Of a stretch of DNA of 64,000 bases, positions 13,139 through 61,825 are shown piece after piece. Position numbers and translations under genes: made by a program. The stretch's first letter is position 1, and each line of letters opens with the position of its first letter. The stretch comes from Candidatus Omnitrophota bacterium (GTDB taxonomy: Bacteria > Omnitrophota > Omnitrophia > Omnitrophales > Aquincolibacteriaceae): NCBI GenBank assembly GCA_030698625.1, contig JAUYMS010000012.1:29872-93871 (forward strand), read 5' to 3'. The notes under the pieces were generated by a model. That model saw only the letters and a program-made list of their open reading frames with translations. It had not been told where the DNA came from and ran no database searches.

Positions 13139-13188
13139 AGCTTCCGTATCTTATTCTTATATAGTAACTTACGGCAATAATAAAGGGA

Positions 13189-13217: not shown

Positions 13218-13273
13218 GTGCAGTCTCAAGCACTTAGCCACGTTGCTGAGTGTTTCTTTCCAGGAGGAATCTC

Positions 13274-13594: not shown

Positions 13595-13616
13595 GGGAAA
13601 GGCCGAGCTTACTTAT

Positions 13617-13862
13617 ATGGCACACACAAAAGCGCAGGGAAGTTCATCAAACGGTCGGGATTCTAACTCCAAAAGGCTTGGCGTCAAGGCTAGCGGTGGT
13701 CAGTTTGTGCGTGCAGGCAGTATCATTGTGCGCCAGCGCGGCAATCGTTTTAGTCCGGGTTTTTTTGTCGGGCGGGGTAATGATTTTACGCTATTCGCTA
13801 AACGGGACGGTATTGTCGAATTCAGAACTAATCACTCGGTTCATATCATTCCTGCACAGTAA
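13617..13862 (+). CDS. rpmA: 50S ribosomal protein L27
   Basis: [24 protein letters not shown]...GSIIVRQRG signature. Confidence 0.9.
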
Positions 13863-24724: not shown

Positions 24725-25063
24725 GTGGCTTATCGATCGAGATCTAAGATGGGCGTTGATGTACTGCGATTCGAAGGAGATCTGAGTGCTGTTGAGATGG
24801 TAAAGATTAAAAGCCGTTTGTCTCGCTTGTTGAAGAAGAATCACAAGAAGCTTCTGCTTGATCTCAAGCGCGCGCGCCGCGTTGAATTAGCAGGATTGGG
24901 TATTCTCGTTGACCGTCTCATGAAGGTGCGTCAACAGAAGGGTGATATCAAGTTGTGCAACATCCGACCTGAAGTGGAACAGACGCTACGCATGATCGGG
25001 GTCAGTGGTCTTATGGAGTCGTTTTGTACGGAAGAAGAGGCTATACGGAGTTTTGCTGCATAA
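24725..25063 (+). CDS. STAS-domain protein (anti-sigma-factor antagonist-like; phosphorylatable Ser replaced by Ala)
   Basis: LRFEGDL...LLLDL...ELAGLGILV...IRPEVEQTLRMIGVSGL fits the SpoIIAA/STAS fold. It has AGLG where DSSGLG is expected. RBS AAGGGGG. Confidence 0.55.
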   Translation: MAYRSRSKMGVDVLRFEGDLSAVEMVKIKSRLSRLLKKNHKKLLLDLKRARRVELAGLGILVDRLMKVRQQKGDIKLCNIRPEVEQTLRMIGVSGLMESFCTEEEAIRSFAA

Positions 25064-25973
25064 ACCGGTTCTTATAAAGGAAACCCTGGATTGTTTAGCG
25101 ATCCCTCGGGATGCCGTTGCTGTTGACGGAACTCTGGGTGACGGGGGCCACGCAGAAGAGATGCTTAAGCGATTAGGCCCTGGGGGAAGACTGATCGCGA
25201 TCGACCAAGATCCACAGGCGATCCTCAGATGCCGGGAGCGTTTCAAAGATTATCGCAATATTTCATTTCATCATGAGAATTTTAGGAATATGCCGGCTGT
25301 TCTGGATTCATTGAATATTGTTGCGGTGGATGCTGTGCTGTTGGACATAGGCTTTTCATCCGATCAACTCGAAGACGCATCCCGCGGCTTTAGTTTTGCA
25401 CGAAACGGCCCTCTGGATATGCGAATGAATCCGGATCTTACATTGCAGGCATTCGATATCGTTAACGGGTACAGACAACAGGAGCTCGAAAAGGTGTTTT
25501 ATGAGTTCGGCGAACAGCGATGGTCACGGAGATTTGCTCGTCAGATCGTTGAAGAGCGACATAAGAAGCCCATCCTTACAACCACAGAGCTTGCTGAAGT
25601 CCTTGAGCGTTCCGTGCCCGGAAGATTTTCCCATCCAAAAAGCAAACGGCCTTCGTGGTCTCGCCATCATCCCGCAACGCGCGCTTTTCAAGCATTGCGA
25701 ATTGCCGTCAATGATGAGCTCGGCGCCCTTGAAGAAGGGCTGGATAGAATGTGGCCGTTCCTAAGATCCGGCGGACGACTTGCAACCATTACGTTTCATT
25801 CCCTGGAAGATCGCATTGTGAAGAACCGATTTCGTAATTGGGCTCGGTCCGGGGAAGCGATCCTTGTGCACAAAAAGCCCGTCACCCCCGGCCGCGATGA
25901 AACAGTCGATAACCCGAGGGCACGGAGTGCTAAATTGAGGGTTGTGGAGAGGACCGATGAGCGGATTTCTTAA
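25005..25973 (+). CDS. rsmH: 16S rRNA (cytosine1402-N4)-methyltransferase (GTG start at 25005, or TTG at 25053)
   Basis: HKPVLIKE, VDGTLGDGGHAEEML and LLDIGFSS motifs. Confidence 0.9.
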   Translation: MVLWSRFVRKKRLYGVLLHKPVLIKETLDCLAIPRDAVAVDGTLGDGGHAEEMLKRLGPGGRLIAIDQDPQAILRCRERFKDYRNISFHHENFRNMPAVLDSLNIVAVDAVLLDIGFSSDQLEDASRGFSFARNGPLDMRMNPDLTLQAFDIVNGYRQQELEKVFYEFGEQRWSRRFARQIVEERHKKPILTTTELAEVLERSVPGRFSHPKSKRPSWSRHHPATRAFQALRIAVNDELGALEEGLDRMWPFLRSGGRLATITFHSLEDRIVKNRFRNWARSGEAILVHKKPVTPGRDETVDNPRARSAKLRVVERTDERIS

Positions 25974-26340
25974 AATTATAGGATGGATCATACCGTTAAC
26001 GGTAGGGCTTTTGCTCTATGTTCACGGACAGGTCTCGCTCTTTCAAGTCTCGTATTCTCTGGACTTGCAGCGGCATATAGTTGCCGAAAAGAGGGAAGAA
26101 TACCGCCGCCTTAAGTTTGAGGTGGATCAACTTAAAGCACCCAGGGTGCTTGAACGCCGCATTAAGGACGAAGGCTTAGAACTTGCATTGCCCGACCAAA
26201 TCCGAGTCCTTCGCGTCAGTCCCCCTGTGAATATCCCATTACCGCCCGTCGTGCGGATCCAACCGAAAGCCTTTTCAGACGGCCTGACGAATTTCCTTGG
26301 TAAATGGGTGAGGGTGGCTCAGGCGAAGCCGGACGCCTGA
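25942..26340 (+). CDS. ftsL: cell division protein FtsL-like
   Basis: Small bitopic protein (TM followed by a coiled coil) sitting between rsmH and ftsI. Confidence 0.55.
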   Translation: MWRGPMSGFLKIIGWIIPLTVGLLLYVHGQVSLFQVSYSLDLQRHIVAEKREEYRRLKFEVDQLKAPRVLERRIKDEGLELALPDQIRVLRVSPPVNIPLPPVVRIQPKAFSDGLTNFLGKWVRVAQAKPDA

Positions 26341-28121
26341 TGCCCGCATCGGTTTCACTGCGACGGTTCTGGTTTCTTAATCTTGTCATCGGCATTGTGT
26401 TCTGTGTCCTAACCTATCAGTTTGTTCAACTCACCGTATTACGCCAGCCCGCTCTCAAGGCCGTTGCCCAGAGGCAGCACACCTTAACCATAGACCTTCC
26501 GCCCTTTCGGGGTGCGATTCTCGACGCCCGAGGAAAGGAGCTTGCAACGAATCTCAAAGTGCCCTCCGTATATGCCGTGCCCCGTCTTCTGACCGAGGAA
26601 AACAGGAAAACTGTAGCGAGAGAAGTGAGCAACTTATTGGGAGTAGACTACGATTTTGCCCTCGAACGTCTGTCGCGCGATAAGTCATTCGTCTGGATCA
26701 GACGGCGAGTAACGCATGAGGAGGCGAAAAAGATAAGGGAATTGAAGCTGCCCTCGTTGGGAATTATTGAGGACTATCAGCGTTTTTATCCGCAGGGTGA
26801 CTTGCTGGCACAAGTCCTGGGTTTTACAAATATCGATAATGAAGGACTTGAAGGTCTCGAACTCAAATACGATCACGCCCTGCACGGCCGACCGGGAAAG
26901 CGGTATACCAAGCGAGACGCCTTGGGGCGCGAGATCAAGGCTTTTGAGATCAAGACCATTCCGGCGGTTCATGGGCACAAAGTGGTTTTGACCATTGATC
27001 AATACCTGCAGTACTTAACAGAAACGGCACTCGAAAAAGCCTATCGCGAGTGGAATGCGAAAGGCGCCATGGCTGTCCTCATGGACCCTGCAAGCGGTCG
27101 AATTCTTGCCATTGCCAATCGTCCTGGTTTTGATCTGAATCATATTGCTTCAGCGAATGCCGACAGTCGGCGAAATCGCGCAATCACCGATACTTATGAA
27201 CCGGGTTCCGTCTTCAAGATCGTTACCGCCAGCGCTGCCCTTAATGAAGGTGTTGCGAATACTGAGACAAATTTCTTCTGTGAAAATGGTGAGTATCGTT
27301 ATGGATCACGTACCTTGCATGATGTGCACCCGTACGGTGATCTCAGTTTTGCCGATGTCATAGTAAAATCAAGCAACATTGGCGCCGTGAAAATTGCCGC
27401 ACTCATGAAGCCCGACGTGTTTCAATCCTATATCGACGGTTATGGATTTGGTAAGAAAACGCAGATCGATCTCCCGGGTGAGGTTTCCGGTTTTACAAGG
27501 CCGCCGGCGCAGTGGTCAAAGACGACACCGTACAATATTCCCATGGGGCATGAGATTATGGTTACGGCGATTCAGATGACGGCCGCCATGGCGACTCTCG
27601 CTAACGGCGGGGACCGCGTCAAACCCTATATCGTCTCGCACATAGAAGATCAGTCCGGCTTTGTCATGCGGCGCAACCTGCCTCAGGTAGTCAAGCACGT
27701 AGTTCGTCCCGAGGTCGCCAAGCAAATGCGGGAAATGCTCACGAGAGTTGTCGAAGAAGGAACCGGTAAGCGTGCCCGCATCGAGGGGACTCAAGTCGGA
27801 GGAAAGACGGGAACGGCGCAGAAGGTATTGCCCGGAGGAAAGGGATATTCTCATGACAGCTTTATTTCATCTTTCGTAGGATTTGCCCCGAGTGAAAATC
27901 CGCAGCTCGCAATGGCAGTTGTTCTTGATGACCCTCACCCGAGTTACTATGGGGGAACGGTTGCCGCGCCGGTTTTTAAGGAAGTAATGGAGAGAGGACT
28001 TCTGTATTTGGGTTATATCCCCGAAGAGGCCCGGCGCCTGGAGCCTTCCAACCGGAAACCAGTGCCTCAAGCGAATCCGCCCATGTTTGTACCGGCGCAA
28101 GCTGCGGGTACAAGGATTTAG
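26304..28121 (+). CDS. ftsI: peptidoglycan D,D-transpeptidase FtsI / PBP3-like class B penicillin-binding protein
   Basis: PBP dimerisation domain plus a transpeptidase domain with SVFK, SSN and KTGT motifs. Confidence 0.85.
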   Translation: MGEGGSGEAGRLMPASVSLRRFWFLNLVIGIVFCVLTYQFVQLTVLRQPALKAVAQRQHTLTIDLPPFRGAILDARGKELATNLKVPSVYAVPRLLTEENRKTVAREVSNLLGVDYDFALERLSRDKSFVWIRRRVTHEEAKKIRELKLPSLGIIEDYQRFYPQGDLLAQVLGFTNIDNEGLEGLELKYDHALHGRPGKRYTKRDALGREIKAFEIKTIPAVHGHKVVLTIDQYLQYLTETALEKAYREWNAKGAMAVLMDPASGRILAIANRPGFDLNHIASANADSRRNRAITDTYEPGSVFKIVTASAALNEGVANTETNFFCENGEYRYGSRTLHDVHPYGDLSFADVIVKSSNIGAVKIAALMKPDVFQSYIDGYGFGKKTQIDLPGEVSGFTRPPAQWSKTTPYNIPMGHEIMVTAIQMTAAMATLANGGDRVKPYIVSHIEDQSGFVMRRNLPQVVKHVVRPEVAKQMREMLTRVVEEGTGKRARIEGTQVGGKTGTAQKVLPGGKGYSHDSFISSFVGFAPSENPQLAMAVVLDDPHPSYYGGTVAAPVFKEVMERGLLYLGYIPEEARRLEPSNRKPVPQANPPMFVPAQAAGTRI

Positions 28122-28989
28122 CTTCCGCCAGTCCCGCGGGGCAGGTGACATTGACCTCAATCAGTCGGTCCATCAAGACGTCAATGCCGACAAAATGAAG
28201 CCCCTGATTTTTTAGATAAGGGGCCATTTCTTCAACGAGCTTTTTTTCGAGACCCGTAAGCGTTGCCGGACAGTAACTCGCGCCCGCGCTCAAGTTGCCC
28301 CGGAAATCACCCTTCCCGAATCGCTTTTCATACGCAAGGAGGACTTCGCCATCAAGGATCAGAATCCGTTTGTCACCGTGAACCCCATCGCCTGTTAAAT
28401 AACGCTGCGCCATAATCGTCTGCGTCCCGTTCTGTGTCGCCTGTTTGAGCAATTCGCTTTTGTGGTTGTCGGCGCGGTGCAGGAGAAAAACTCCCTTCCC
28501 TCCCTTTTCATCAAGCGGCTTTACGACCACATCCGACTGCAGACGATCTTGAAAATCAAGTATCGTGGTTTCGGAACGGGAGACTACGGTTTCCGGCATC
28601 CAGCGGGAAAAATGGAGCGCCGACAATTTCTCGTTGTTGTTACGGATTCCGGTCGGGTGGTTCAGCACCGGCACCAGGCGGGCAACGTGGTCCAAGAGGT
28701 GCGTGAGGTACAGGTAATTGGCGTCGAACGGGGGCTCTTTGCGGATCAGGATAAGCTGAAAGTCACGAGCCTTTAGCCTCTTTCTGTCGGTAGCGTGATA
28801 TCGGAAGTCTGCATCCGGGCAGATGCGGCTCGCGTCAGCCACCACATCGGGCGTCTCATACCACACCTCATGGGTATCCGCTGCCCAGGTTGAGTGACCC
28901 CGGGCGGCCAATTCCCGCAAAAGGGTTAGCGAGGTATCCCATTTCGCATCAAGGACTTCTAGTGGATCTAAGATAAATAGACAATTCAT
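27976..28989 (-). CDS. gshB: glutathione synthetase (ATP-grasp)
   Basis: The N-terminus LFILDPLEVLDAKWDTSLTLLRELAARGH resembles GshB. ATP-grasp region. Its 3' end overlaps ftsI head-on. Confidence 0.7.
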   Translation of the reverse strand: MNCLFILDPLEVLDAKWDTSLTLLRELAARGHSTWAADTHEVWYETPDVVADASRICPDADFRYHATDRKRLKARDFQLILIRKEPPFDANYLYLTHLLDHVARLVPVLNHPTGIRNNNEKLSALHFSRWMPETVVSRSETTILDFQDRLQSDVVVKPLDEKGGKGVFLLHRADNHKSELLKQATQNGTQTIMAQRYLTGDGVHGDKRILILDGEVLLAYEKRFGKGDFRGNLSAGASYCPATLTGLEKKLVEEMAPYLKNQGLHFVGIDVLMDRLIEVNVTCPAGLAEAKSLYPQLAPVQTWADSLEALVSGWKAPGAGPLRGYNPNTEVLSPLLP

Positions 28990-29113
28990 GATTTCTCCGT
29001 TTCCAATACCCTAGACTAGCGTAAAAAGCCGATATATCAAGGAAATTAGGAGGTATTGAGTAATTTCCCAATTGGCAGTATTCTACGGCTTATGAGTGCA
29101 ACCGAGGAAAGAC

Positions 29114-30478
29114 ATGAGTAAATTGATGGGGCAGGATAAAGGGCAAGAACGGATTACTGAGGAGGATTTGGCCGGGTATTTCCAGCGGTTTGCCAAAACG
29201 CGTGAGTTTATGCGGGTGGGAGTTGAATGCGAGTTCTTCGGTGTTCGGGCCAGGGACGGCAAGGCGATCCCCTTTGATGGACCCTCAGGTATTGAGGCCA
29301 TACTGAAGTGGCTTGCCCAGAACTTTGGCTATGAAGAGGTTCTTGAGGAGAGCAGGGTGATTGCCCTTAAACGGGAGGACATTTCTGTGACCTTGGAGCC
29401 CGGCGGTCAGGTGGAGTTAAGCGGTGCGCCAGTCTGGAACGTGTTCGAAATTGAAGCGCAGATCCAAGAGTTTGTCCACGAACTGCGTGAGTCGCGCTGC
29501 CGCTTTCCTGAACTGGAGTGGCTGGCCGTAGGGATACAACCCTTCAGTCGGGCGGATGACATAGCCTGGGTTCCCAAAAAAAGATACGAGATAATGCGTG
29601 AGCATTTCCGGGAACGCGGGCCGATGTCTCACCACATGATGAAAACTACCGCGACTAATCAGGTCAATTTCGATTATCTGAGCGAAGAAAACGCCATGGC
29701 AAACCTTCGTGTTGTCTACGGGATTACGTCGATTGTTTCGGCGCTCTTTGCCAATTCCGGGTTTTCTGAAGGGCGCCCAAACGGTTATGCGACAAAACGA
29801 TTGGAAATCTGGAATCACACCGATCCCGATCGAACGGGGCTTCTATTGCGATTCCTTGAACCCGGGGCGACTTTTCAGGACTATATTGAATATCTTCTAA
29901 AGATGCCGATGATCTTTTTGGTGCGTGACCGAAGATGGATTCCCTCTGATGGGCGCAGTTTTCGTACGTTTTTGGCAGAGGGATATCAGGGGTTCTCGGC
30001 GACGCTGGCGGACTTCGAGCTTCACTTAAGCACGGCTTTCCCCGAAGCGCGGCTCAAGCAATATCTGGAAATTCGCGGCGTGGACTGCCAGAGCCCTCAT
30101 CTGATGCCGGCCGTGGCGGCGTTTTGGAAAGGGATTCTCTATGACCCCGAGACAAGCGATAAGGCCTGGAAACTCGTGGCGGATGTCCCGCTGAAAGAGC
30201 GGATCCGGGTTCATCAGAATATCCCGCGCGAGGGCTTAAAAGGGCGCATTGGCGTCCGAACTGTGTTTGAAGTTGCCCGTGAGTTGGTGGATCTCGCCTG
30301 TGCCAGCTTGGCAAAGCAGAGGACTCAGACCGAAACCCGCGACGAGTGTCGCTTTCTGGACCGCATTAGGAAGACCATTATTGCCGAAGGCAAGTCACCC
30401 GCTGAGACGATGCTGGAAAAGTGGTACGCGGATCTGGGGGAGGACCCTGCCAGATTGCTGGAGTATCTGAGAATCTAG
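29114..30478 (+). CDS. gshA: glutamate--cysteine ligase, GCS2/plant-type family (alternative start at 29096)
   Basis: RVGVECEFFGV... carboxylate-amine ligase pattern. Divergent from gshB. RBS GAGGAAAG. Confidence 0.7.
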   Translation: MSKLMGQDKGQERITEEDLAGYFQRFAKTREFMRVGVECEFFGVRARDGKAIPFDGPSGIEAILKWLAQNFGYEEVLEESRVIALKREDISVTLEPGGQVELSGAPVWNVFEIEAQIQEFVHELRESRCRFPELEWLAVGIQPFSRADDIAWVPKKRYEIMREHFRERGPMSHHMMKTTATNQVNFDYLSEENAMANLRVVYGITSIVSALFANSGFSEGRPNGYATKRLEIWNHTDPDRTGLLLRFLEPGATFQDYIEYLLKMPMIFLVRDRRWIPSDGRSFRTFLAEGYQGFSATLADFELHLSTAFPEARLKQYLEIRGVDCQSPHLMPAVAAFWKGILYDPETSDKAWKLVADVPLKERIRVHQNIPREGLKGRIGVRTVFEVARELVDLACASLAKQRTQTETRDECRFLDRIRKTIIAEGKSPAETMLEKWYADLGEDPARLLEYLRI

Positions 30479-30558: not shown

Positions 30559-30633
30559 CGGGATGTAGCACAGCATGGCTAGTGCGCTCGGTTCGGGTCC
30601 GAGAGGTCGCAGGTTCGAATCCTGCCATCCCGA
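30559..30633 (+). tRNA. tRNA-Pro (anticodon CGG)
   Basis: 75-nt cloverleaf: acceptor CGGGATG/CATCCCG, D-arm GCAC/GTGC, anticodon stem CTCGG/CCGAG with loop TTCGGGT, T-arm GCAGG-TTCGAAT-CCTGC. CCA is not encoded. Confidence 0.85.
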
Positions 30634-30646
30634 CTCCCATTTTCAA

Positions 30647-52514: not shown

Positions 52515-53795
52515 ATGGACTACCAACTAACGCAATTGCCGAACGGTCTCAAGGTCGTGACGATTCCCATGCAGGACCGGGAAACCGTCGCGGTAGCGAT
52601 TTGGGTGCGCGTCGGCAGTCGCTATGAGCCCCTGCGGAGTTCGGGGCTATCGCATTTTATGGAGCACATGCTTTTCAAGGGAACCCGCCGGCGCAGTACA
52701 CGCCAGATTAAAGCTGAAATCGAGGGGGTTGGGGGGATGCTCAACGCCTTTACAAGTGAGGAGACGACCTGTTTCTTTGCGAAAGTGATGAAAGACCACT
52801 ATTCCGGAGCGTTGGACGTGCTTGCGGATATGGTCAATCATGCAACACTCAAGCCGGATGAGATCCGCAAAGAAAAGACGGTGATCGTCGAAGAAATTAA
52901 AATGTATCAGGATTTGCCCAGCCATGAGGTTTTTGAGTTGTTGGGAGAAATGGTGTGGCCGAATCAGCCGTTGGGCAGAAATCTTGCCGGAAGTGAAAAA
53001 ACGGTGATGTCATTTACCCGGCCGGACGTCACGAAATTCAAACAGCGCTTTTATCATCCCGGTAATTTGGTGCTCTCAGTCTCGGGTCCGGTTTTTCACG
53101 AGGAAATTTTAGAGCAGGCCCGGTCTCTTTTCGGCGACAAGCCGCGGCATGCCGTCTCCCGCTTTCCGAAGGCCCGAATCAGCCGCCGGGGGCCGAGGAC
53201 CCGTTTCTGTGACAAAGAGACCGCCCAGACGCACTTTGTGATAGGGTTTCATAGTGTTTCCCGGTATCATGCCTATCGTTACGCCGTGGGGCTCCTGAGC
53301 GTCATGCTGGGCGGCAATATGTCGAGCCGGCTCTATGAGGAACTGCGCGAGAAGCGCGGATTGGCCTATGAAATTCGGGCCGGTGCGAGTTTTCTCCAGG
53401 ATACGGGGTGTTTTACCGTTTCTGCAGGGGTCGAGCCCGAGAAGGCGACTACAGCCATTTCAGTGGTCTTGCGGGAGCTGGGCAAAATTTGTCACAGCCG
53501 TATGAGCGAGCGTGAACTGCGGCGGGCGAAGGATTACTTTTTGACCCAGCTTTGGATGGCCCTCGAGGATACCCTTGATCACATGCTCTGGGCCGGCGAG
53601 AGGATGGTTTATAGCGACGATCTGCCCAGTCTCAACTCGCTTCGCAGGGGTATTGAGCAGGTTACTGTGCGCGATATGCAGGAAGCCGCGCGCCAAATAT
53701 TCCAAACACAGAATTTGCACCTTGCTTTGATCGGAAAACTGAATGCGAAACAACAGCGCCGAATCAAAGAAAGCTTTGTGATCCCGGGTGCGTAA
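52515..53795 (+). CDS. M16 family zinc peptidase (pitrilysin-like)
   Basis: Inverted zinc motif HFMEHMLFKGT (HxxEH) and ...E...E downstream. Confidence 0.8.
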   Translation: MDYQLTQLPNGLKVVTIPMQDRETVAVAIWVRVGSRYEPLRSSGLSHFMEHMLFKGTRRRSTRQIKAEIEGVGGMLNAFTSEETTCFFAKVMKDHYSGALDVLADMVNHATLKPDEIRKEKTVIVEEIKMYQDLPSHEVFELLGEMVWPNQPLGRNLAGSEKTVMSFTRPDVTKFKQRFYHPGNLVLSVSGPVFHEEILEQARSLFGDKPRHAVSRFPKARISRRGPRTRFCDKETAQTHFVIGFHSVSRYHAYRYAVGLLSVMLGGNMSSRLYEELREKRGLAYEIRAGASFLQDTGCFTVSAGVEPEKATTAISVVLRELGKICHSRMSERELRRAKDYFLTQLWMALEDTLDHMLWAGERMVYSDDLPSLNSLRRGIEQVTVRDMQEAARQIFQTQNLHLALIGKLNAKQQRRIKESFVIPGA

Positions 53796-54480
53796 ACCAG
53801 AAATTCAAAGCGAGGCATTGAATACGGCTGTGACGCAGAAAACGCTTATAGCGCCCAGTATTTTATCTGCAGACTTTTCACGTTTGGGCGAGGAAATCGA
53901 GGATATCGAAAAGGGAGGCTGCGATATTATTCATATTGATGTCATGGACGGCCGCTTTGTTCCTAATTTGACGCTCGGACCTCCGGTGATCAAACACTTT
54001 CGCAAGGTCTCCAAGCTGCCCTTCGATGTCCATCTCATGATCGACGAGCCCATTAATTCCGTAGCCGATTACAGAAAAGCGGGCGCAGACTGGATTACGA
54101 TTCATGTGGAAGCAGCAAGTGATGTGAGTGCAACTCTGACGGCCATCGGTGACCTGGGCGCGAAAAGAGGTATTTCACTGCGGCCGATGACACCCCTTTC
54201 GGCCGTGGAGCCTTATTTGGACCAGGTAGATCTGGTTCTGATTATGACGGTAGAACCCGGATTCGGCGGCCAGTCATTTATGCCGGAGATGCTGAAGAAG
54301 ATAAGGACGCTCAGGCCGAAGTTTACGGGCCTGATCTCGGTTGACGGCGGCATCAATGTAGAGACTGGGCGCGCTAGTCTGGAAGCCGGCGCCGACATTC
54401 TCGTTGCCGGAACTTCCGTCTTTGGTCAGGAAGACCGTGCCCAGGCGATTGCGTCGCTTCGCCGAGCTGCCGGTAAGTGA
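53788..54480 (+). CDS. rpe: ribulose-phosphate 3-epimerase (alternative GTG start at 53830)
   Basis: IAPSILSADF, HIDVMDG, HLMI, and a TIM barrel. Confidence 0.9.
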   Translation: MRKPEIQSEALNTAVTQKTLIAPSILSADFSRLGEEIEDIEKGGCDIIHIDVMDGRFVPNLTLGPPVIKHFRKVSKLPFDVHLMIDEPINSVADYRKAGADWITIHVEAASDVSATLTAIGDLGAKRGISLRPMTPLSAVEPYLDQVDLVLIMTVEPGFGGQSFMPEMLKKIRTLRPKFTGLISVDGGINVETGRASLEAGADILVAGTSVFGQEDRAQAIASLRRAAGK

Positions 54481-56261
54481 TGGATCCTTCCAAGATTCGC
54501 AATTTTTCCATTATCGCCCACATTGATCACGGAAAGTCTACGCTCGCAGACCGACTTCTGTTGAATACCGGCGCTATTTCCAAGCGAGAATTCCGCGAGC
54601 AAATCCTTGATGACATGGATCTCGAGCGTGAGCGCGGTATTACGATCAAGGCGCGTGCGGTTCGAATTCATTACAAGGACTACTACCTTAATCTGATCGA
54701 CACTCCCGGACATATCGATTTCACGTATGAAGTATCTAAGAGCCTGGCCGCGTGCGAAGGGGTGTTGCTCTTAGTGGACGCGGGCCAGGGGATTCAGGCG
54801 CAGACCGTCACGAATCTTTATTTGGCGATGGAGCGTGATATGTTGATTATCCCGATCATCACCAAAATCGACCTGCCGACGGCGGAACCGGAGCGTGTGC
54901 GCAAGGAAGTCAGTGATTTTCTCGGCTGTAATCCCGATGAGATTCTTTCGATAAGCGCAAAAACCGGAGAGGGCACCGACGAGGTTTTGACGGCGATCAT
55001 CGAGCGAATACCCGCGCCTTCGGGTAACCCGAACTCGCCGTTGAAGGCGCTTATCTTTGATTCAAAGTATGATGTCTACCAGGGGGTCATTGCCTATATC
55101 CGCATTATGGACGGAAAGATTAACCATAATGATGAGTACGTTATGATGCAGATAGGCAAAAAGTATATTGCCGAACAACTCGGCTTTTTGAATCCGCACC
55201 CGGAGGAGTCTGCCGAGATGGGCGTCGGTGAGGTTGGGTATGTCTCCGGCAACATCCGGGATATCGGCGACGTCAAAATCGGGGACACGATAACGCTTAT
55301 AAAATCTCCGGCAACACACCCCCTTGAGGGCTATCAGGAAGTGAAGCCCATGGTTTTTTGCGGGCTATATCCTATTCAGGCAAAGGATTTCGATTCCTTG
55401 CGCGATGCGCTCGGCAAACTTCGTCTTAACGACGCCTCCTTTATGTTCGAACCGGAGACCTCGGCGTCTCTGGGTTTCGGGTTTCGATGTGGTTTTCTCG
55501 GGCTTCTGCATATGGAGATTGCTAAAGAACGTCTGGAACGGGAATTCGGTCTCGACCTTCTCATTACGGCGCCTACCGTTGTTTACCGTGTGTACACGAC
55601 TGATGGCAAAGTGGCCGATCTGGCAAACCCCACGAAATTACCGCCCGTTCAACAGATTGAGAAGATCGAAGAGCCTTATATCCGTGCCAACTTGATTATC
55701 CCTGCGAGCAATATCGGCGCGGTCATGCAGTTTTGCCAGGACCGAAGGGGCATCTATAAGCACACCGAATATCTGGATCAGAACCGCGTCGTGCTGTCCT
55801 ATGAGCTGCCGTTCGCAGAAATCGTTATGGACTTTTACGATAAGTTGAAATCCATGACCGCCGGCTACGGATCCTTTAATTATGATTTTATCGCGGGGCA
55901 GACCGCGAAGCTCGTGAAGCTGGATGTTCTCATTAACGGAGATCCCGTTGATGCGCTTTCGAGTATCGTCGTGAGCGACCAAGCATACCACCGCGGTAAG
56001 GCATTGGTCGAGAAGCTGCGCAAAGTTATCCCGCGCCAACTTTTCGAAGTAGTCATCCAGGCGGCGATCGGCTCAAAGATTATCTCCCGCGAGTCGATAA
56101 GTGCGCTTAAGAAAAACGTAACGGAAAAGTGTTACGGCGGCGACATCACCCGCAAGCGGAAGCTTTGGGATAAGCAGAAAGAGGGTAAGAAGAAAATGAA
56201 GCGTATCGGTAAAGTGGAACTTCCGCAGGAAGCCTTCATCAGCGTCTTGAGGGTGGACTAA
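54477..56261 (+). CDS. lepA: elongation factor 4
   Basis: IRNFSIIAHIDHGKSTLADRLL, DTPGHIDF and NKID G-motifs, and a C-terminal LepA domain. Confidence 0.95.
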   Translation: MMDPSKIRNFSIIAHIDHGKSTLADRLLLNTGAISKREFREQILDDMDLERERGITIKARAVRIHYKDYYLNLIDTPGHIDFTYEVSKSLAACEGVLLLVDAGQGIQAQTVTNLYLAMERDMLIIPIITKIDLPTAEPERVRKEVSDFLGCNPDEILSISAKTGEGTDEVLTAIIERIPAPSGNPNSPLKALIFDSKYDVYQGVIAYIRIMDGKINHNDEYVMMQIGKKYIAEQLGFLNPHPEESAEMGVGEVGYVSGNIRDIGDVKIGDTITLIKSPATHPLEGYQEVKPMVFCGLYPIQAKDFDSLRDALGKLRLNDASFMFEPETSASLGFGFRCGFLGLLHMEIAKERLEREFGLDLLITAPTVVYRVYTTDGKVADLANPTKLPPVQQIEKIEEPYIRANLIIPASNIGAVMQFCQDRRGIYKHTEYLDQNRVVLSYELPFAEIVMDFYDKLKSMTAGYGSFNYDFIAGQTAKLVKLDVLINGDPVDALSSIVVSDQAYHRGKALVEKLRKVIPRQLFEVVIQAAIGSKIISRESISALKKNVTEKCYGGDITRKRKLWDKQKEGKKKMKRIGKVELPQEAFISVLRVD

Positions 56262-56891
56262 ATGCCTATTTGGATCCCCTTAGCGGTTATTGCGGTTTTG
56301 ATCCTTTATCGCCACAAACTTGTCGAGGAGTGGCAGATGTTCAGGACACAAAGGCGCGAATGGCTCCGCGACAAATGGAAGAATTGGGGAGAACCTTTTG
56401 TCGTTGCCGCAATTCTGGCCATCGTGATCCGTACGTTTCTTCTTGGCCCTTATAAGATACCGACCGGATCCATGCGCCCGACATTTCTGGAGGGTGACCG
56501 CATTTTTGTGGATAAAGTTTCCTATCGGTTTAATGAGCCTGACCGCGGCGACATTATTGTGTTTAAGTATCCCGAGGACAAGAAGAAGGATTTCGTGAAG
56601 AGGCTTGTAGGGCTCTCAGGCGATCGCCTGGAGATACGTCAGGGCAAGATCTGGATCAACGGAGAAGCCCTTGATGACCCGCCCTTTTCGCAAAACTACT
56701 ACTACAACATGGGCGATTACGGCAAGGAGAATGGGAGCATCATCATTCCCGAGAATAGTCTTTTCGCCATGGGGGATAACTCGGCCCACTCCTCTGATAG
56801 CCGCAATTGGGGATATGTTCCGCGCGGTAATGTAGTCGGAAAGGCATTTGTGATTTGGTGGCCTCCCAAGCGCGTCAAGCTCGTCGAATAG
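56262..56891 (+). CDS. lepB: signal peptidase I
   Basis: PTGSMRPT (catalytic Ser), catalytic Lys region VKRLVGLSGD, and GDNSAHSSDSRNWG. Confidence 0.85.
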   Translation: MPIWIPLAVIAVLILYRHKLVEEWQMFRTQRREWLRDKWKNWGEPFVVAAILAIVIRTFLLGPYKIPTGSMRPTFLEGDRIFVDKVSYRFNEPDRGDIIVFKYPEDKKKDFVKRLVGLSGDRLEIRQGKIWINGEALDDPPFSQNYYYNMGDYGKENGSIIIPENSLFAMGDNSAHSSDSRNWGYVPRGNVVGKAFVIWWPPKRVKLVE

Positions 56892-58140
56892 CCCCTACCT
56901 TTCTCTGGGCGCCGCCACTTCGGCACATCAAGTCGAAGGCAATAATGACCGCAATGACTGGTGGGCTTGGGAAGCAGCGGGCAAGGTCAGGACCCCTTCC
57001 CGAGAGGCCTGTGATCACTGGTCTCGCATTCACGAAGACGTAGCCCTTATCGCCTCGCTTGGCCACACGGCCTATCGCTTTTCCCTGGAGTGGAGCCGCC
57101 TAGAACCCAATGAGAATGAGTGGGACGAAGCGGCTTTTTCTCACTACGCAAAGCTCCTCACTGAATTACACCTGAGACAAATTGAGCCCGTAGTGACCCT
57201 GCATCACTTTACGAATCCTCAGTGGTTTGCGCGAAGGGGAGGGTGGCTTGCTGAGGATGCCCCGCTCATTTTTGCGCGTTATGTCCGCGAGGTGAGCCGA
57301 CGCGTCGGCGGAAAGGTGCGTTTCTGGATTACCATCAACGAGCCGATGGTCTACGTGTATTATGGCTATGTGATAGGTTCCTGGCCGCCGGGAGAACGGT
57401 CCTTTGATGCGGCAACACGAGTTCTGCGGAATCTTTTGATCGCGCATGTGCGTGCCTATCAGGAATTGCATTCGATTTGTGACGGGCTGACAGGTGCCCC
57501 TGTCTCAGTCTCTATCGCGAAGCATCTTACCCATTTCGCACCCTGCCGGAAGAACAGTCTGAGTGACCGGTTTGCGGTGTTCCTACGAAATCAGTTTTTT
57601 AATGCGATGTGTTTTTCCGCGCTATCAACGGGCTTTCTCTTCTTTCCGGGTGTTTTCTGCGAAAGGTTGCCGGGGGAGCGAACCTTGGATTTTTTAGGGG
57701 TGAATTATTACCGCAGAGATTTCATCCGTTTTGGAGGATTGCGGGATCAGGGCCCCCTCGGCGAGATCTGTGAAGATGCCCATCATGCCGGGCAAATAGC
57801 CGAGCGGAATTCCATGGGGTGGGAGATATACCCCGAAGGTTTGTATCGGGTCCTCGCGGCTTTACGCCGCTTTTCACTGCCGGTGCTTATCTGTGAAAAC
57901 GGAGTTGCCACCGACGATGACACTCAGCGTGTCCGTTTTATTGAGAGCCACGTGCAGTCGATCGAGAGGGTTCGGTCCGAGGGGCTTGATGTGAGCGGCT
58001 ATTTGTACTGGTCGCTGTTCGATAACTTTGAGTGGGCAGAAGGTTACAAGCCCCGGTTCGGCATCGTCGAAGTCGGGGCAGCCGATAAAACAAGAAAAGT
58101 CAGGCCCAGCGCTCATGTTCTAAGCCGGGTTTGCCGATAG
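56855..58140 (+). pseudogene. GH1 family beta-glucosidase, apparently frameshifted near the N-terminus (single-base G indel around 56905-56912); the long intact portion is the ORF 57193-58140 frame
   Basis: The frame starting at the ATG at 56855 reads ...PTFLW. The next frame reads GAATSAHQVEGNNDRNDWWAWE... Fused, they give FLWGAATSAHQVEG, the GH1 N-terminal signature. Downstream are TINEP (acid/base) and ICENG (nucleophile). The long frame has no start codon between the stop at 56851 and 57193. Confidence 0.55.
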
Positions 58141-58147
58141 CTATCCC

Positions 58148-58744
58148 ATGCAGGCTGACCTTTTTGATTCTTCATCTTCGAGATCTTCCCTAGCAAATGA
58201 CTCTCAGGGTGCTTTTTTCGACCGCTACCGGTTGTCTATCCGTCTAGACAAGGCGCTGCTGCTCTTTATCGCTATGCTCATGGTAAATGTCTTTGTCTAC
58301 TGCCGCGGAGTCGATAGCGGTAAACAGGCGGCTCAGGCGCCGCTGCAAGAGGTGACGGAAGTCCCTGTGGAATCTGAGCCTATAAAGCCTATTGAGATGA
58401 TTCCGCCGCTGCCGACTGAAATAGGGGGGCTTCAAATTACAGAAATCCAGCCCTCCCGCGAGAAGCTGCCGCCTGATGTGTCCACGGCGGATGAAACTCA
58501 GGCAAAGCCGCATGGAAAGTATACGATACAGATCGTTACGTATAAATCGCAGCAGTCGGTGGACCAGCAGGTGCAGAAACTCGCCTCGAAGGGCTATCAA
58601 GGCTTCGTGATCCCCAGCGGTAAGTATTTGCAGGTCTGTGTAAACGCTTTTAATGAGCGCCGCGAGGCTATGAGCGCACTGCGAGATCTTCAGTTGCACG
58701 GATTGGCGCCCCCAGACGCGTTTGTGCGTCCCATGAGCCGGTAG
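58148..58744 (+). CDS. SPOR domain protein (membrane-anchored)
   Basis: TM helix, a Pro/Glu-rich linker, and a C-terminal SPOR-like fold (YTIQIVTYKSQQSVDQQVQKLASKGYQGFVIPSGKYLQVCVNAFNERREA). Confidence 0.6.
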   Translation: MQADLFDSSSSRSSLANDSQGAFFDRYRLSIRLDKALLLFIAMLMVNVFVYCRGVDSGKQAAQAPLQEVTEVPVESEPIKPIEMIPPLPTEIGGLQITEIQPSREKLPPDVSTADETQAKPHGKYTIQIVTYKSQQSVDQQVQKLASKGYQGFVIPSGKYLQVCVNAFNERREAMSALRDLQLHGLAPPDAFVRPMSR

Positions 58745-58790
58745 TTATCGAGTCTTTCTATCCCGTCCGATTCTTGGTAACATAGACCCT

Positions 58791-59558
58791 ATGAGTGCTT
58801 CTCCAAAACTCGTTATCCTAGCCATTCTAATGCTTCTCTTACAACCAGCGTGGGCCATTGAGCGCATAGAGCCGTGGCAAGAGGCTGTGCGGCTCAACAA
58901 TGAAGGTCTTAGACTGGAAGCTCAGGGCGACCTTCGCGAGGCCCGGGCTCAGTATGAAGAAGCGACCCGTCAAGACCCGAAGTTGGCCATTGCTTTCAGC
59001 AATCTCGGAAATCTCTACTATCAGGAGCAGAACTATGAGAAAGCGGCCCAGTTTTTTAAAAAGGCCGTTCGTTTGAAGCCTGATACCGCTGCTTTTCATA
59101 TCAATCTGGCTAACGTTTTCTACGCGGAAAAGGGCTATGACAAGGCTATTCGCGAGTACCAAATAGCCCTCAAATTAGACCCCGAAAATGCGGTAGCGGA
59201 ATCAAATCTGGGGGATACTTACCTGCAGAAAGGTGCTCTCAAGCTTGCGGGCCATCACCTGAGCCGTGCCGTGCAGAAGAATCCTGGGCTGAGTATTGCT
59301 CACTATAATAGGGGTATGCTCTTTCTGGCGGCCGGAAAGCGTCAGGAAGCTCGCGAGAGTCTCGAGCGTTCTCTGGAATTGAATCCCCTGTTTGCGGATA
59401 CCCACTTTCAGCTAGCCAAAATCTACGAAGATGAGTATAATACTGTGCTAGCTGTAAGGCACTTCGGGGCCTATCTTAAGATCGACAGACAAGGTCCGAA
59501 TGCACTGAAAGCGGCAAGGAGCATTCAGCGGTTGTCCCGCCAGCTTCCGCAGAGTTAG
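58791..59558 (+). CDS. secreted TPR repeat protein
   Basis: Signal peptide plus at least five TPR units (AFSNLGNLYYQEQNYEKAAQFFKKAVRL... etc.). Confidence 0.6.
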   Translation: MSASPKLVILAILMLLLQPAWAIERIEPWQEAVRLNNEGLRLEAQGDLREARAQYEEATRQDPKLAIAFSNLGNLYYQEQNYEKAAQFFKKAVRLKPDTAAFHINLANVFYAEKGYDKAIREYQIALKLDPENAVAESNLGDTYLQKGALKLAGHHLSRAVQKNPGLSIAHYNRGMLFLAAGKRQEARESLERSLELNPLFADTHFQLAKIYEDEYNTVLAVRHFGAYLKIDRQGPNALKAARSIQRLSRQLPQS

Positions 59559-59667
59559 CCCGCAGAGCGCAGTCAGGTTCGGTTTCGTATTTTCCAAGTT
59601 CCTTGCGATAACGGGGGAGCTGTCTTAGATAAAAGCTGAAAGGCTTAATTTTTTAGGAGGAAGTGAT

Positions 59668-59940
59668 ATGTCTCAGCATGGCAGTTTAAGAGTCGATAGC
59701 GTCGGCAAAAAGCATCGCAATGTATTTAAGCGCCTTGAGCGTATTAAGCGTATGCAGGAACAAAACCGCTTTGCCGACAACCGGTCCATTTATAATCTCC
59801 CCAAGATCAAGTCGATCAAGATCAAGGTCAAGGCCACTGCTGTAAAAGCAGCAGAGGGTGAAGCCGGAGCCGCTGGAGCGGCTGGAGCAGCCGCGCCAGC
59901 ATTACCTGGCGCTCAATCTAAGGAAAAGGCGAAGAAGTAA
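59668..59940 (+). CDS. small basic hypothetical protein with Ala/Gly-rich C-terminal tail
   Basis: Strong RBS AGGAGGAAG. Basic N-terminus, and a C-terminal AAEGEAGAAGAAGAAAPALPGAQ tail encoded by a tandem GCTGGAGC-like DNA repeat. Confidence 0.4.
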   Translation: MSQHGSLRVDSVGKKHRNVFKRLERIKRMQEQNRFADNRSIYNLPKIKSIKIKVKATAVKAAEGEAGAAGAAGAAAPALPGAQSKEKAKK

Positions 59941-59945
59941 CCCCT

Positions 59946-60449
59946 GTGAATGCTTCCAAGATAAATATCAGACGTTTTACAGCCGGCGATGAGACCTCCG
60001 TTAAGAGCCTGATCAAAGAGATCATGGCTCATGAATTTAACGATGATCAGGGGGCATATCCGACTGAGGATATTGAAGAGGTGGAACGTTCTTACGGGGG
60101 ATTGGGAGAAGCATTTTTTGTTGCCGAGGATAATTCACAGATTGTTGGAACAGTTGCTATCAAGAAGGAAGACGATCGTGTCGCGCTTCTCAGGCGACTT
60201 TTCGTTGCAGCGGATTACCGCAAGCGTAAGATTGGGCTAGAACTCGTCGATCATGCCCTTGAGTTTTGTCACGAGGTGGGCTATGAGGAAATCATCTTTA
60301 GAACGACCTCCCGCATGCAGGCGGCCATCAAATTGTGTCAAAAATGCGGCTTTATTCCACGCGCAAAACTCAAATTGGGTCCTATCGAACTCTTAAAGTT
60401 CGCCTTGTCGATACGGGACGGTCGCAAGACCGCTAAGTCCCGTTCCTAA
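59946..60449 (+). CDS. GNAT family N-acetyltransferase
   Basis: Acetyl-CoA binding motif RRLFVAADYRKRKIGLELV. Confidence 0.75.
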   Translation: MNASKINIRRFTAGDETSVKSLIKEIMAHEFNDDQGAYPTEDIEEVERSYGGLGEAFFVAEDNSQIVGTVAIKKEDDRVALLRRLFVAADYRKRKIGLELVDHALEFCHEVGYEEIIFRTTSRMQAAIKLCQKCGFIPRAKLKLGPIELLKFALSIRDGRKTAKSRS

Positions 60450-60459
60450 ACCGATCACT

Positions 60460-61458
60460 ATGGCATGGTTTTCACGTAAAAGAAAAGAAAAAGGCACGGA
60501 ATCCCTCAAGACGCTTTCCGAAGAGGAGATTCAACAAAAGCTCTACGGGCAGTTTGACCTGCGTAATACACTTGCCGAGGAGCCTGCTGAGGCCGAAGAC
60601 CCTGACTCAGAGTCCGATGGATCTGACAGCGGCCGGTTCGCGAAGCAGCCCGCCGTTCCGCCAACGCAGAATGCATTCGAGGAAAAAAAGCGCTTCGACC
60701 GCTTGACCATCGTCAAGGACGAAGACCTCAAAGTAGAGCCTACTCCCAAGATCATTAAGCACCCGAAGCGCCCGTCCAGAAAGCCGAGCTCCTTTAAGTT
60801 TAAGCTGATTTCTTTGAAGCCGATTCTGACGACATTGCGTATGGTGATAGTCGTCGTTTTGACGAAGGTAACAGAACTTCTCATCACGGGTATTCGTTTT
60901 CTGCTCAAGGGGATTAAATGGGTTGACCCCCGCAGACGCGCGGTCCGGCGGGTGATTTATTGGATGGCTGGCCTAGCCCTGGTTTTTTGTCTTTTTATGG
61001 GGATTCATATTTTGAATGTTCAGAGGGAAAAAGCGATGCGAAGCTCCGCGGGAGTATCTGCTGTCGCGCCGAAGTTTGAAAGGCGCACTACAGTGAATGC
61101 CGCAGAGTCGCCCTTAGTGGCGATTACCGGGCAAGAGGAAACAGTCGAGATTGCTCAGTCTGAATCCGAGGAAGAGTTAGATGCGTCCGTTTCTGGCGAC
61201 TCACCCGCATTACCGTATGTCATTCAGGTGGCCACGTATGTGGGGCCTCAAGACGCAGCACGAGTTTCAGAGGATCTGAGTGAGGCGAAATTTCCCGGTT
61301 TTGTACAAAAGCTAAGCCGCTCAGGTGGGAGAGTTTACTATTCCGTATTTTTAGGGCGCTATGCGACCTTTCAGGAAGCGCAAAATAAGCTTGTCCAGTT
61401 TCGCAAGCACCGCGCCTCACGACCCTTTTCCGACGCATTCATCCGCTCGCTGACCTAA
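60460..61458 (+). CDS. SPOR domain protein (bitopic membrane protein)
   Basis: Internal TM, and a C-terminal SPOR-like region (YVIQVATYVGPQDAARVSEDL...GGRVYYSVFLGRYATFQEAQ). Confidence 0.6.
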   Translation: MAWFSRKRKEKGTESLKTLSEEEIQQKLYGQFDLRNTLAEEPAEAEDPDSESDGSDSGRFAKQPAVPPTQNAFEEKKRFDRLTIVKDEDLKVEPTPKIIKHPKRPSRKPSSFKFKLISLKPILTTLRMVIVVVLTKVTELLITGIRFLLKGIKWVDPRRRAVRRVIYWMAGLALVFCLFMGIHILNVQREKAMRSSAGVSAVAPKFERRTTVNAAESPLVAITGQEETVEIAQSESEEELDASVSGDSPALPYVIQVATYVGPQDAARVSEDLSEAKFPGFVQKLSRSGGRVYYSVFLGRYATFQEAQNKLVQFRKHRASRPFSDAFIRSLT

Positions 61459-61462
61459 TTCT

Positions 61463-61825
61463 ATGTGGGACGGCCTAAATCATAGAAAGTTTCCCCGCTC
61501 CGCGCTTCGTTGCGAAATAGACGTTATTCCAAATGCGAAGGGCCGACGTATCCACGTGCAAACTCAGAACGTAGGTATTGGCGGTGTCTGCGTTATTTTG
61601 AACCGTTCTCTCCGGAGGTATAGTGAGTGCGGGATACGTCTCGAAGTAGACAAGGCTCAGCCCGAAATCAGGTGCAATGGGAAGGTTGTCTGGACCGTTG
61701 AGACGCGCGATGTACAGTCTGGCAAGAGTCACTACGATACGGGTATAGAATTTATAGATCTTCCGGCCGCAGGTCGTGAGCAGATCGTGAATCATATCGC
61801 CGTGCGAGCAGCCGGCAACGAGTAA
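61463..61825 (+). CDS. PilZ domain protein
   Basis: An RxxxR-like region (HRKFPRSALR) and a D/NxSxGG-like region (QNVGIGGVCV) in a ~120-aa protein. Confidence 0.5.
   Translation: MWDGLNHRKFPRSALRCEIDVIPNAKGRRIHVQTQNVGIGGVCVILNRSLRRYSECGIRLEVDKAQPEIRCNGKVVWTVETRDVQSGKSHYDTGIEFIDLPAAGREQIVNHIAVRAAGNE

What the first reader, a model, noticed from the sequence alone, without database searches (positions are those of the whole stretch)
56855..58140. GH1 beta-glucosidase gene with an apparent N-terminal frameshift in a G-run (possible pseudogene, phase-variable, or sequencing error)
The long ORF frame (57193-58140, extendable upstream to 56854) contains every GH1 hallmark (GAATSAHQVEG, NEP acid/base, ENG nucleophile) but has no start codon. 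The only ATG (56855) is in the adjacent frame and encodes ...PTFLW, the residues that precede GAAT in the GH1 consensus FLWGAAT. A single G gain or loss in ctcTGGGCGCC (56903-56913) reunites them. The gene also overlaps the lepB stop. An otherwise perfectly conserved enzyme is interrupted after ~17 codons.
Basis: seen in the sequence. Interest (0 to 1): 0.55.

Follow-up and report, generated by a model that had tools for sequence, protein, structure and literature searches.

The report
Frameshifted GH1 glycosidase gene after lepB
A sugar-cleaving enzyme gene (glycoside hydrolase family 1) in an uncultured Omnitrophota bacterium has lost one G near its start, which most likely makes it a very young broken gene; this is an ordinary lesion, and the public annotation hides it by starting the gene at a CTG codon.

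Summary
The core observation holds. Frame 1 (56908-58140) encodes a complete, highly conserved GH1 body with no ATG/GTG/TTG before 57193. The adjacent frame (56855-56908) ends in ...PTFLW, and inserting one G into GGG 56907-56909 gives a 428-aa ORF.

Corrections:
- Codon 56855 is TTG, not ATG (GTG at 56858).
- Only a G gain rejoins the frames, not a single loss.
- The run is only 3 G.

All ten lepB-adjacent orthologs (53-60% identical, Omnitrophota) read FLW/IW-G as TGG-GGN, so the lesion is G4 to G3.

An independent Logan assembly of SRR13727534 is 100% identical over 8283 bp, including GGG. None of about 20 other genes tested in the window is split. 920 homopolymer runs of 4 or more bases lie inside open ORFs. 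A homopolymer-type sequencing artefact is therefore unlikely.

The body shows no decay: 0 of 93 columns conserved at 95% or more are violated. GenBank (MDP3919565.1, 411 aa) starts the gene at CTG 56905, which drops F-L-W from barrel strand beta-1.

Best reading: a real 1-bp deletion and a very young pseudogene, or at best a crippled gene. Phase variation and programmed frameshifting are not supported. Interest is low.

The parts
56262..56891 (+). lepB (signal peptidase I, 209 aa), the upstream gene. Its stop TAG is at 56889-56891.
   Evidence: ORF. Peptidase_S26 in the identical Logan contig. NCBI MDP3919564.1 'signal peptidase I'. The C-terminus ...IWWPPKRVKLVE* is collinear with orthologs.
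56855..56908 (+). Remnant of the GH1 N-terminus in the neighbouring frame: (TTG)VASQARQARRIAPTFLW. Read on in this frame, it terminates at 57041-57043 (62 aa). TTG 56855 and GTG 56858 lie inside the conserved I-W-W codons of lepB.
   Evidence: PTFLW matches the ortholog consensus P-F-L-W. The same TTG-GTG occurs in ortholog L002, where it is not the start.
56906..56910 (+). Lesion site: TGGGC, where all lepB-adjacent orthologs have TGG GGN (Trp-Gly). This is a one-base deletion, G4 to G3.
   Evidence: Junction DNA of 10 orthologs. A +1 G restores a 428-aa ORF.
56905..58140 (+). The public gene model: CTG start, 411 aa, MGAATSAHQVEG... (MDP3919565.1, 'glycoside hydrolase family 1 protein').
   Evidence: There is no Shine-Dalgarno-like pairing upstream (+0.1 kcal/mol). 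The product lacks F16-L17-W18, while beta-1 spans residues 17-21 in the AF2 model.
56908..58140 (+). GH1 catalytic body (residues 19-428 of the repaired protein), fully open reading frame.
57337..57345 (+). N-E-P motif; Glu163 is the acid/base.
   Evidence: Invariant columns N162, E163, P164 in 120 sequences. Aligned to NEP of 1VFF.
57895..57903 (+). E-N-G motif; Glu348 is the nucleophile.
   Evidence: Invariant columns E348, N349, G350. Aligned to ENG of 1VFF.
57193..58140 (+). Longest ORF from a canonical start (GTG, 315 aa). This is what an automatic gene caller reported on the Logan contig (P0001). It lacks the first 113 residues of the open frame (95 residues of the barrel), so it cannot be a complete barrel.
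58148..58744 (+). Downstream SPOR-domain gene, part of the conserved block.

Best explanation
The window comes from an uncultured Candidatus Omnitrophota genome. Its lepB-adjacent GH1 beta-glycosidase gene carries a genuine one-base deletion at the Trp18-Gly19 codon junction (ancestral TGG GGC, now TGGGC).

Consequences:
- Ribosomes starting in the N-terminal frame (TTG 56855 or GTG 56858, overlapping lepB) make only a 62-residue peptide.
- The catalytic body has no canonical start before GTG 57193.
- The only nearby option, CTG 56905, has no ribosome-binding signal and would remove F-L-W from barrel strand beta-1.

The gene is therefore most likely a very recently inactivated pseudogene that has not yet accumulated any further damage.

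Shown: the lesion, its reproducibility in two assemblies, the ortholog state, and the lack of decay. Inferred: that the reads themselves are correct and that no functional protein is made.
For: - Frames and motifs.
- All 119 homologs and 10 syntenic orthologs keep [FI]xW-G in one frame with TGG GGN.
- The Logan contig of SRR13727534 is 100% identical over 8283 bp, including GGG.
- No intact allele exists. The repaired 428- and 427-aa proteins are absent from 15 billion proteins, and no other hit exceeds 60% identity.
- About 20 neighbouring genes cover their Pfam profiles end to end, and 920 runs of 4 or more bases (80 of 6 or more) lie inside open ORFs.
- CTG 56905 has no SD.
- Beta-1 spans residues 17-21 in a pLDDT-95 model.
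- There is no slippery site and no downstream RNA structure (z=0.25).
Against: - The 410-codon body (56908-58137) is pristine. It violates 0 of 93 columns conserved at 95% or more (homologs average 1.0) and 2 of 124 at 90% or more.
- Its identity to orthologs relative to lepA (0.69-0.79) overlaps that of intact pairs (0.71-0.85).
- This is what an intact gene with a base-calling or consensus error, or a still-functional gene, would also look like.
- Both assemblies probably derive from the same reads, so they test the assembler, not the chemistry.
- The gene sits in a strongly conserved block, which argues that loss should be selected against.
Confidence: 0.55

Rival explanations
1. Sequencing or consensus error. 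The organism has TGG GGC, and the gene is intact (428 or 427 aa), starting at TTG 56855 or GTG 56858 inside the end of lepB.
For: - The ORF body is perfectly conserved.
- A single +G restores everything.
- The block is conserved in all relatives.
- At least one ortholog (L168) also lacks an ATG and probably starts at a TTG overlapping lepB.
- Several orthologs overlap lepB by 1-8 nt.
Against: - Two different assemblies give the same GGG.
- No other gene in the 64 kb is broken, although much longer homopolymers (up to A9, G7, T7) lie in coding sequence.
- A 34-37-nt overlap with lepB and a 17-residue leader before the conserved Trp lie beyond what the 10 syntenic orthologs show (start from 11 nt inside lepB to 33 nt after its stop).
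- TTG-GTG is a by-product of the lepB I-W-W codons.
Confidence: 0.2
2. The deletion is real but the enzyme is still made, as in the GenBank model. Translation starts at CTG 56905, perhaps by re-initiation of ribosomes terminating at the lepB stop 14 nt upstream, giving a 411-aa protein that lacks F-L-W.
For: - NCBI annotates exactly this protein.
- The lepB stop is 13 nt upstream of the CTG (14 nt before the Trp codon), so coupling is conceivable (sequence).
- The lack of decay in the body is compatible with continued selection.
- SD use is weak genome-wide, so a missing SD is not decisive.
Against: - CTG is a very poor bacterial initiator (established knowledge).
- None of 63 first-start ORFs in the window needs one: 40 ATG, 18 GTG, 5 TTG.
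- W18 is conserved at 90% or more, and no ortholog starts after it once gene-call artefacts are resolved.
- The product would lose 2 of the 5 residues of barrel strand beta-1.
Confidence: 0.15
3. Programmed recoding or switching. Either a -1 ribosomal frameshift at CTC-TGG-G joins the two frames, or the G tract is a phase-variable on/off switch.
For: The two frames overlap in the way recoded genes do. The site is a short G run, and all orthologs carry 4 or more G there (L003 has 6).
Against: - There is no X XXY YYZ heptamer at or near the junction (sequence).
- tRNA-Trp cannot re-pair after a -1 slip (inference).
- The downstream 116 nt fold no better than shuffles (z=0.25), and there is no Rfam hit.
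- None of 10 orthologs is frameshifted.
- A 3-4 nt tract is far too short for slipped-strand phase variation, and a cytoplasmic-type glycosidase is not a typical contingency gene (established knowledge).
Confidence: 0.03

Closest known systems
GH1 beta-glycosidase of Pyrococcus horikoshii (PDB 1VFF, 423 aa)
   Same: It is the best solved relative by sequence (E=6.5e-96, query 14-428 vs chain 7-404) and by fold (TM 0.88, 40% identity). It belongs to the same short (about 420 aa) GH1 subtype, with the same SSHQ[IV]EGNN, NEP and ENG motifs.
   Different: It is archaeal and only 40% identical. It is intact, whereas the window gene is interrupted after codon 18. Substrate preference cannot be transferred at this distance.
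lepB-adjacent GH1 genes of other Omnitrophota MAGs (e.g. P0002, P0005, P0012, P0017)
   Same: They are 53-60% identical. They share the gene order M16 peptidase-rpe-lepA-lepB-GH1-SPOR-...-GNAT-SPOR. They have the same N-terminal P-F-L-W-G-A-A-T-S.
   Different: All are in one frame, with TGG GGN and a start from 11 nt inside lepB to 33 nt after its stop. The window has TGGGC and no canonical start near the junction.
Ordinary bacterial frameshift pseudogenes (single-base indel in a short homopolymer)
   Same: A one-base loss in a short G run lies near the 5' end, the ORF is otherwise collinear with intact orthologs, and no recoding signals are present.
   Different: There is no secondary decay at all, and only one genome is available, so fixation in the population and loss of function are not demonstrated.
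Phase-variable contingency loci and programmed frameshift genes (prfB, dnaX type)
   Same: Two overlapping frames must be joined at a nucleotide run.
   Different: The tract is too short (3 G). There is no slippery heptamer, no stimulatory SD or structure, and the frameshift is not conserved in orthologs.

Membership tests
Glycoside hydrolase family 1 (Pfam PF00232) | Significant match to the family profile | tested here: met
   E=2.3e-81, 274 bits against a cut-off of 22.6. 193 PDB GH1 sequences at E<=1e-20.
Glycoside hydrolase family 1 (Pfam PF00232) | Catalytic acid/base Glu in N-E-P and nucleophile Glu in E-N-G | tested here: met
   N162-E163-P164 and E348-N349-G350 are invariant in 120 sequences and present in the window.
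Glycoside hydrolase family 1 (Pfam PF00232) | (beta/alpha)8 barrel fold | tested here: met
   AF2 model of the repaired protein has pLDDT 95.4 and pTM 0.93. Foldseek best hit is 1VFF at TM 0.88, and all top 50 hits are GH1.
Glycoside hydrolase family 1 (Pfam PF00232) | Complete coding sequence: start codon and first barrel strand (F-L-W-G-A-A-T) in one frame | tested here: not met
   F-L-W and G-A-A-T are in different frames, and there is no canonical start in the body frame before 57193.
Glycoside hydrolase family 1 (Pfam PF00232) | Beta-glycosidase activity | not testable with these tools
   This needs expression and pNP-beta-glycoside assays of the repaired and CTG-start forms.
Pseudogene (recent frameshift) | Reading frame disrupted relative to intact orthologs | tested here: met
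   10 of 10 syntenic orthologs are intact at the site; the window has lost one G.
Pseudogene (recent frameshift) | The lesion is in the genome, not an artefact | tested here: inconclusive
   An identical sequence appears in an independent Logan assembly, and there are no other broken genes. The reads themselves could not be inspected.
Pseudogene (recent frameshift) | Relaxed selection or secondary lesions | tested here: not met
   0 of 93 columns conserved at 95% or more are violated, the GH1/lepA identity ratio is within the range of intact pairs, and there are no internal stops. This is compatible only with a very young pseudogene.
Phase-variable contingency locus | Long homopolymer or short-repeat tract (typically 7 nt or more) in the 5' coding region | tested here: not met
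   The tract is GGG (3 nt); the ancestral state was 4 G.
Phase-variable contingency locus | Tract-length heterogeneity among reads or strains | not testable with these tools
   No reads were available. No second allele was found in protein or DNA collections.
Programmed -1 ribosomal frameshift | Slippery heptamer X XXY YYZ at the frame junction | tested here: not met
   The junction reads ACC TTT CTC TGG GCG, with no such heptamer.
Programmed -1 ribosomal frameshift | Downstream stimulatory structure, and conservation of the shift in orthologs | tested here: not met
   Fold z-score is 0.25, there is no Rfam family, and orthologs are unshifted.

The most novel reading that the evidence does not exclude
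The deletion is real yet the enzyme is still produced. Ribosomes finishing lepB at TAG 56889-56891 would re-initiate 14 nt downstream at CTG 56905 without a Shine-Dalgarno sequence. The resulting GH1 barrel would tolerate loss of the F-L-W half of strand beta-1. This would explain why the body shows no decay, and it would validate the GenBank CTG model.
Probability: 0.12. Interest if true: 0.35.

Novelty: new member of a known kind. Interest (0 to 1): 0.15.

Why it matters
Mostly as an annotation and quality point. The GenBank protein MDP3919565.1 (411 aa, CTG start) is a rescued model of a frameshifted gene and should probably be flagged as a pseudogene or frameshifted. Automatic callers report 315 aa or 411 aa for what was a protein of about 428 aa.

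Biologically, the gene belongs to a block (lepA-lepB-GH1-SPOR) that is conserved across Omnitrophota. A lineage that has just lost it would be a small natural experiment on what this GH1 does. Nothing here challenges current understanding.

Tried and rejected
- **Exact DNA search.** The junction was searched with GGG or GGGN in genome contigs and metagenome contigs, with no match. Neither the source genome nor an alternative allele is in those collections.
- **Profile-driven locus searches.** Searches in genome contigs and metagenome contigs returned 160 loci, but nearly all are more distant GH1s (40-50% identity) without lepB upstream. Only L004, L005 and L084 were usable for the junction.
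- **Contig look-up.** A look-up of the NCBI protein P0121 found nothing on record.
- **Paper search.** A search for SRR13727534 gave no hit, so the sequencing platform is unknown. A search for Omnitrophota plus GH1 gave nothing relevant.
- **Shine-Dalgarno scoring.** Candidate starts were scored, but the genome uses SD only weakly (46% of ORFs at -4 kcal/mol or below, against 33% of random sites), so the test does not discriminate.
- **A second lesion (loss of the native ATG).** I first thought a lost ATG was a second lesion, because 9 syntenic orthologs have an ATG within -8 to +33 nt of the lepB stop. I dropped this as firm evidence after L168 turned out to have no ATG and a probable TTG start overlapping lepB, and L165-L167 overlap lepB by 1-8 nt.
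- **Apparently truncated orthologs.** P0029 ('MWGAATS') and P0027 ('MEG...') looked like precedents for a short N-terminus. Both are gene-call artefacts with F/M-W upstream in frame.
- **A lepB-GH1 fusion by +1 shift at the lepB stop.** Rejected: GAA-TAG is not slippery, and the fused frame reads SPYLSL instead of PTFLW.

Full report
**What is in the sequence**

- lepB (signal peptidase I) occupies 56262-56891 and ends ...IWWPPKRVKLVE-TAG.
- In the frame of 56908, the sequence reads GAATSAHQVEGNNDRNDWW... without a stop to 58140.
- Upstream, this frame stays open to 56854 (FGGLPSASSSSNSPYLSL) but contains no ATG, GTG or TTG before GTG 57193. Its only near-cognate codon is CTG 56905.
- In the neighbouring frame, TTG 56855 and GTG 56858 open an ORF reading (M)VASQARQARRIAPTFLW. 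It then continues out of frame (APPLRH...) to a stop at 57041-57043.
No canonical start exists in any frame from 56859 to 56944.
- Inserting one G into GGG 56907-56909 gives a single 428-codon ORF with ...PTFLWGAATSAHQVEG.... Deleting one G gives a stop at codon 29. So only a gain repairs the gene.

**What the gene is**

- The repaired protein matches Pfam Glyco_hydro_1 at E=2.3e-81.
- Its best solved relative is the 423-aa beta-glycosidase of Pyrococcus horikoshii, 1VFF, at E=6.5e-96.
- An AlphaFold model built on 120 sequences has pLDDT 95.4. It superposes on 1VFF at TM 0.88, and all other top hits are also GH1.
- N162-E163-P164 (57337-57345) and E348-N349-G350 (57895-57903) are invariant columns.

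**Where it comes from**

- The closest database proteins are 52-60% identical, about 420-430 aa, and come from Candidatus Omnitrophota MAGs.
- The flanking proteins are in GenBank on one 101,789-bp contig: MDP3919564.1 (signal peptidase I) and MDP3919566.1 (SPOR domain protein), both labelled Candidatus Omnitrophota bacterium.
- The same contig carries MDP3919565.1, 'glycoside hydrolase family 1 protein', 411 aa, beginning MGAATSAHQVEG. NCBI's pipeline therefore started the gene at CTG 56905.
- A gene caller on the Logan assembly reported only the 315-aa ORF from GTG 57193 (P0001).

**The ancestral state**

- The gene lies in a conserved block: M16 peptidase-rpe-lepA-lepB-GH1-SPOR-TPR-small ORF-GNAT-SPOR.
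- In ten lepB-adjacent orthologs (L002-L005, L084, L164-L168), the GH1 N-terminus is in one frame. The Trp-Gly junction is always TGG GGN, giving 4-6 consecutive G.
- L084 reads ATT TGG GGC GCC GCA where the window reads CTC TGG G-C GCC GCC.
- The lesion is therefore loss of one G from a G4 run.
- All 119 aligned homologs have [FI]xWG[AT]ATS. The two apparent exceptions are gene-call artefacts with the motif upstream in frame: P0029 'MWGAATS' and P0027 'MEG'.

**Is it an artefact?**

- The Logan contig assembled independently from run SRR13727534 is 100% identical to window 53248-61530 (8283 bp, no mismatch or gap), including TGGGC.
- The window is tiled by open ORFs (93% of bases).
- About 20 genes at the most suspicious junctions cover their Pfam profiles end to end. 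Examples are MraW 3-308/309, CobD 1-282/282, CN_hydrolase 1-255/256 and Exo_endo_phos 1-225/225.
- 920 homopolymer runs of 4 or more bases lie inside open ORFs, including 80 of 6 or more and 32 of 7 or more.
- A platform or assembler prone to homopolymer indels would have broken longer runs first. GH1 is the only break seen.
- Caveat: both assemblies probably use the same reads, and I could not inspect reads or learn the platform.
- No intact allele exists in the collections searched. The repaired 428- and 427-aa proteins are absent from 15 billion proteins, nothing lies between 60% and 100% identity, and the junction DNA with GGG or GGGN is absent from the genome and metagenome contig sets.

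**Has the gene decayed?**

- No. Downstream of the shift the protein violates 0 of 93 columns conserved at 95% or more (homologs: mean 1.0, maximum 6). It violates 2 of 124 columns at 90% or more (homologs: mean 3.0).
- Its identity to orthologs, scaled by lepA identity, is 0.69-0.79. Intact ortholog pairs give 0.71-0.85.
- The 410-codon body (56908-58137) has no stop.
- So the lesion is very recent, or the gene is still under selection, or the lesion is not real.

**Can it still be expressed?**

- CTG 56905 has no Shine-Dalgarno pairing (+0.1 kcal/mol). However, SD use is weak throughout the window, so this says little.
- In the model, barrel strand beta-1 spans residues 17-21 (L-W-G-A-A). 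A CTG start removes F16, L17 and the nearly invariant W18.
- For an intact (repaired) gene, the start would have to be TTG 56855 or GTG 56858.
  - These two codons are by-products of the conserved I-W-W codons of lepB. They also occur, unused, in L002.
  - They would imply a 34-37-nt overlap with lepB. Orthologs start from 11 nt inside lepB to 33 nt after its stop.
  - Since L168 probably uses a TTG overlapping lepB, I do not count the missing ATG as a firm second lesion.
- ATA 56888 sits where L165 and L166 have an ATG overlapping the lepB stop (L165 MAPAF... versus window (I)APTF...). An ATG there would destroy the lepB TAG, so this remains speculation.

**Recoding and phase variation**

- The junction (ACC TTT CTC TGG GCG) has no X XXY YYZ heptamer.
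- The 116 nt downstream fold no better than shuffles (z=0.25), and Rfam finds only a tRNA-Pro elsewhere.
- No ortholog is shifted.
- A 3-4-nt tract is far below the lengths that give slipped-strand switching (established knowledge).
- Both ideas are rejected.

**Verdict**

The rankings are:

| Reading | Confidence |
|---|---|
| Genuine one-base deletion producing a very young pseudogene | about 0.55 |
| Base-calling or consensus error in an intact gene | about 0.2 |
| Still-functional CTG-initiated truncated enzyme, as GenBank annotates | about 0.15 |
| Programmed recoding or phase variation | about 0.03 |

This is an ordinary kind of lesion in a known enzyme family. Its main practical consequence is that the public gene model is probably wrong.

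Noticed in passing
window 52515-61458; loci L001-L005, L164-L168: The gene order M16 peptidase-rpe-lepA-lepB-GH1-SPOR-TPR-small ORF-GNAT-SPOR is conserved among Omnitrophota contigs that are only 53-60% identical in GH1. A cytoplasmic-type GH1 locked between signal peptidase I and SPOR (septal peptidoglycan-binding) proteins is an unexplained association.
   Followed up: partly
window 56905-58140: GenBank protein MDP3919565.1 (411 aa) is this gene started at CTG 56905 (MGAATS...). The Logan gene call is 315 aa from GTG 57193. Neither record flags the frameshift.
   Followed up: yes
L164 806-830; L168 800-870: Two ortholog proteins in the database are N-terminally mis-called. P0029 (MWGAATS) has an in-frame ATG four codons upstream (MLKPMWG). 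P0027 (MEG...) has FPFPFLWGTSTS upstream in frame, with only a TTG start overlapping lepB by about 11 nt.
   Followed up: yes
L002-L005, L084, L164-L168 at the Trp-Gly codons: Every ortholog encodes W-G as TGG GGN, so the family carries a built-in run of 4-6 G at codon 18/19 of a conserved motif. This is a small intrinsic indel hotspot.
   Followed up: partly
window 20756-21856 (+): A ParA/MinD-type ATPase (AAA_31, CbiA) carries a C-terminal glycogen-binding module (AMPK1_CBM / CBM48, residues about 284-365). This is an unusual domain combination.
   Followed up: no
window 13449-13862 (+): The ribosomal protein L27 domain begins only at residue 58 of the first-start ORF. Either the start is over-called or there is a long N-terminal extension. 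The 311-nt stretch upstream (13139-13448) has no ORF of 80 aa or more, where rplU might be expected.
   Followed up: no
window 27976-28989 (-) and 29096-30478 (+): A 337-aa minus-strand ORF overlaps the 3' end of the PBP/FtsI-like gene (26304-28121) by about 145 nt. It diverges from a GCS2 glutamate-cysteine ligase gene. From memory it looks like a glutathione-synthetase-type ATP-grasp protein, but this was not tested.
   Followed up: no
window 30559-30634 (+): tRNA-Pro(CGG) is the only RNA gene detected in the 64 kb by Rfam and ARAGORN.
   Followed up: yes
window 24725-28121 (+): This is the start of a division/cell-wall cluster: a STAS-domain protein, MraW/RsmH methyltransferase (25005-25973), a small ORF (25942-26340, no Pfam hit, in the FtsL position) and the PBP transpeptidase.
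   Followed up: no
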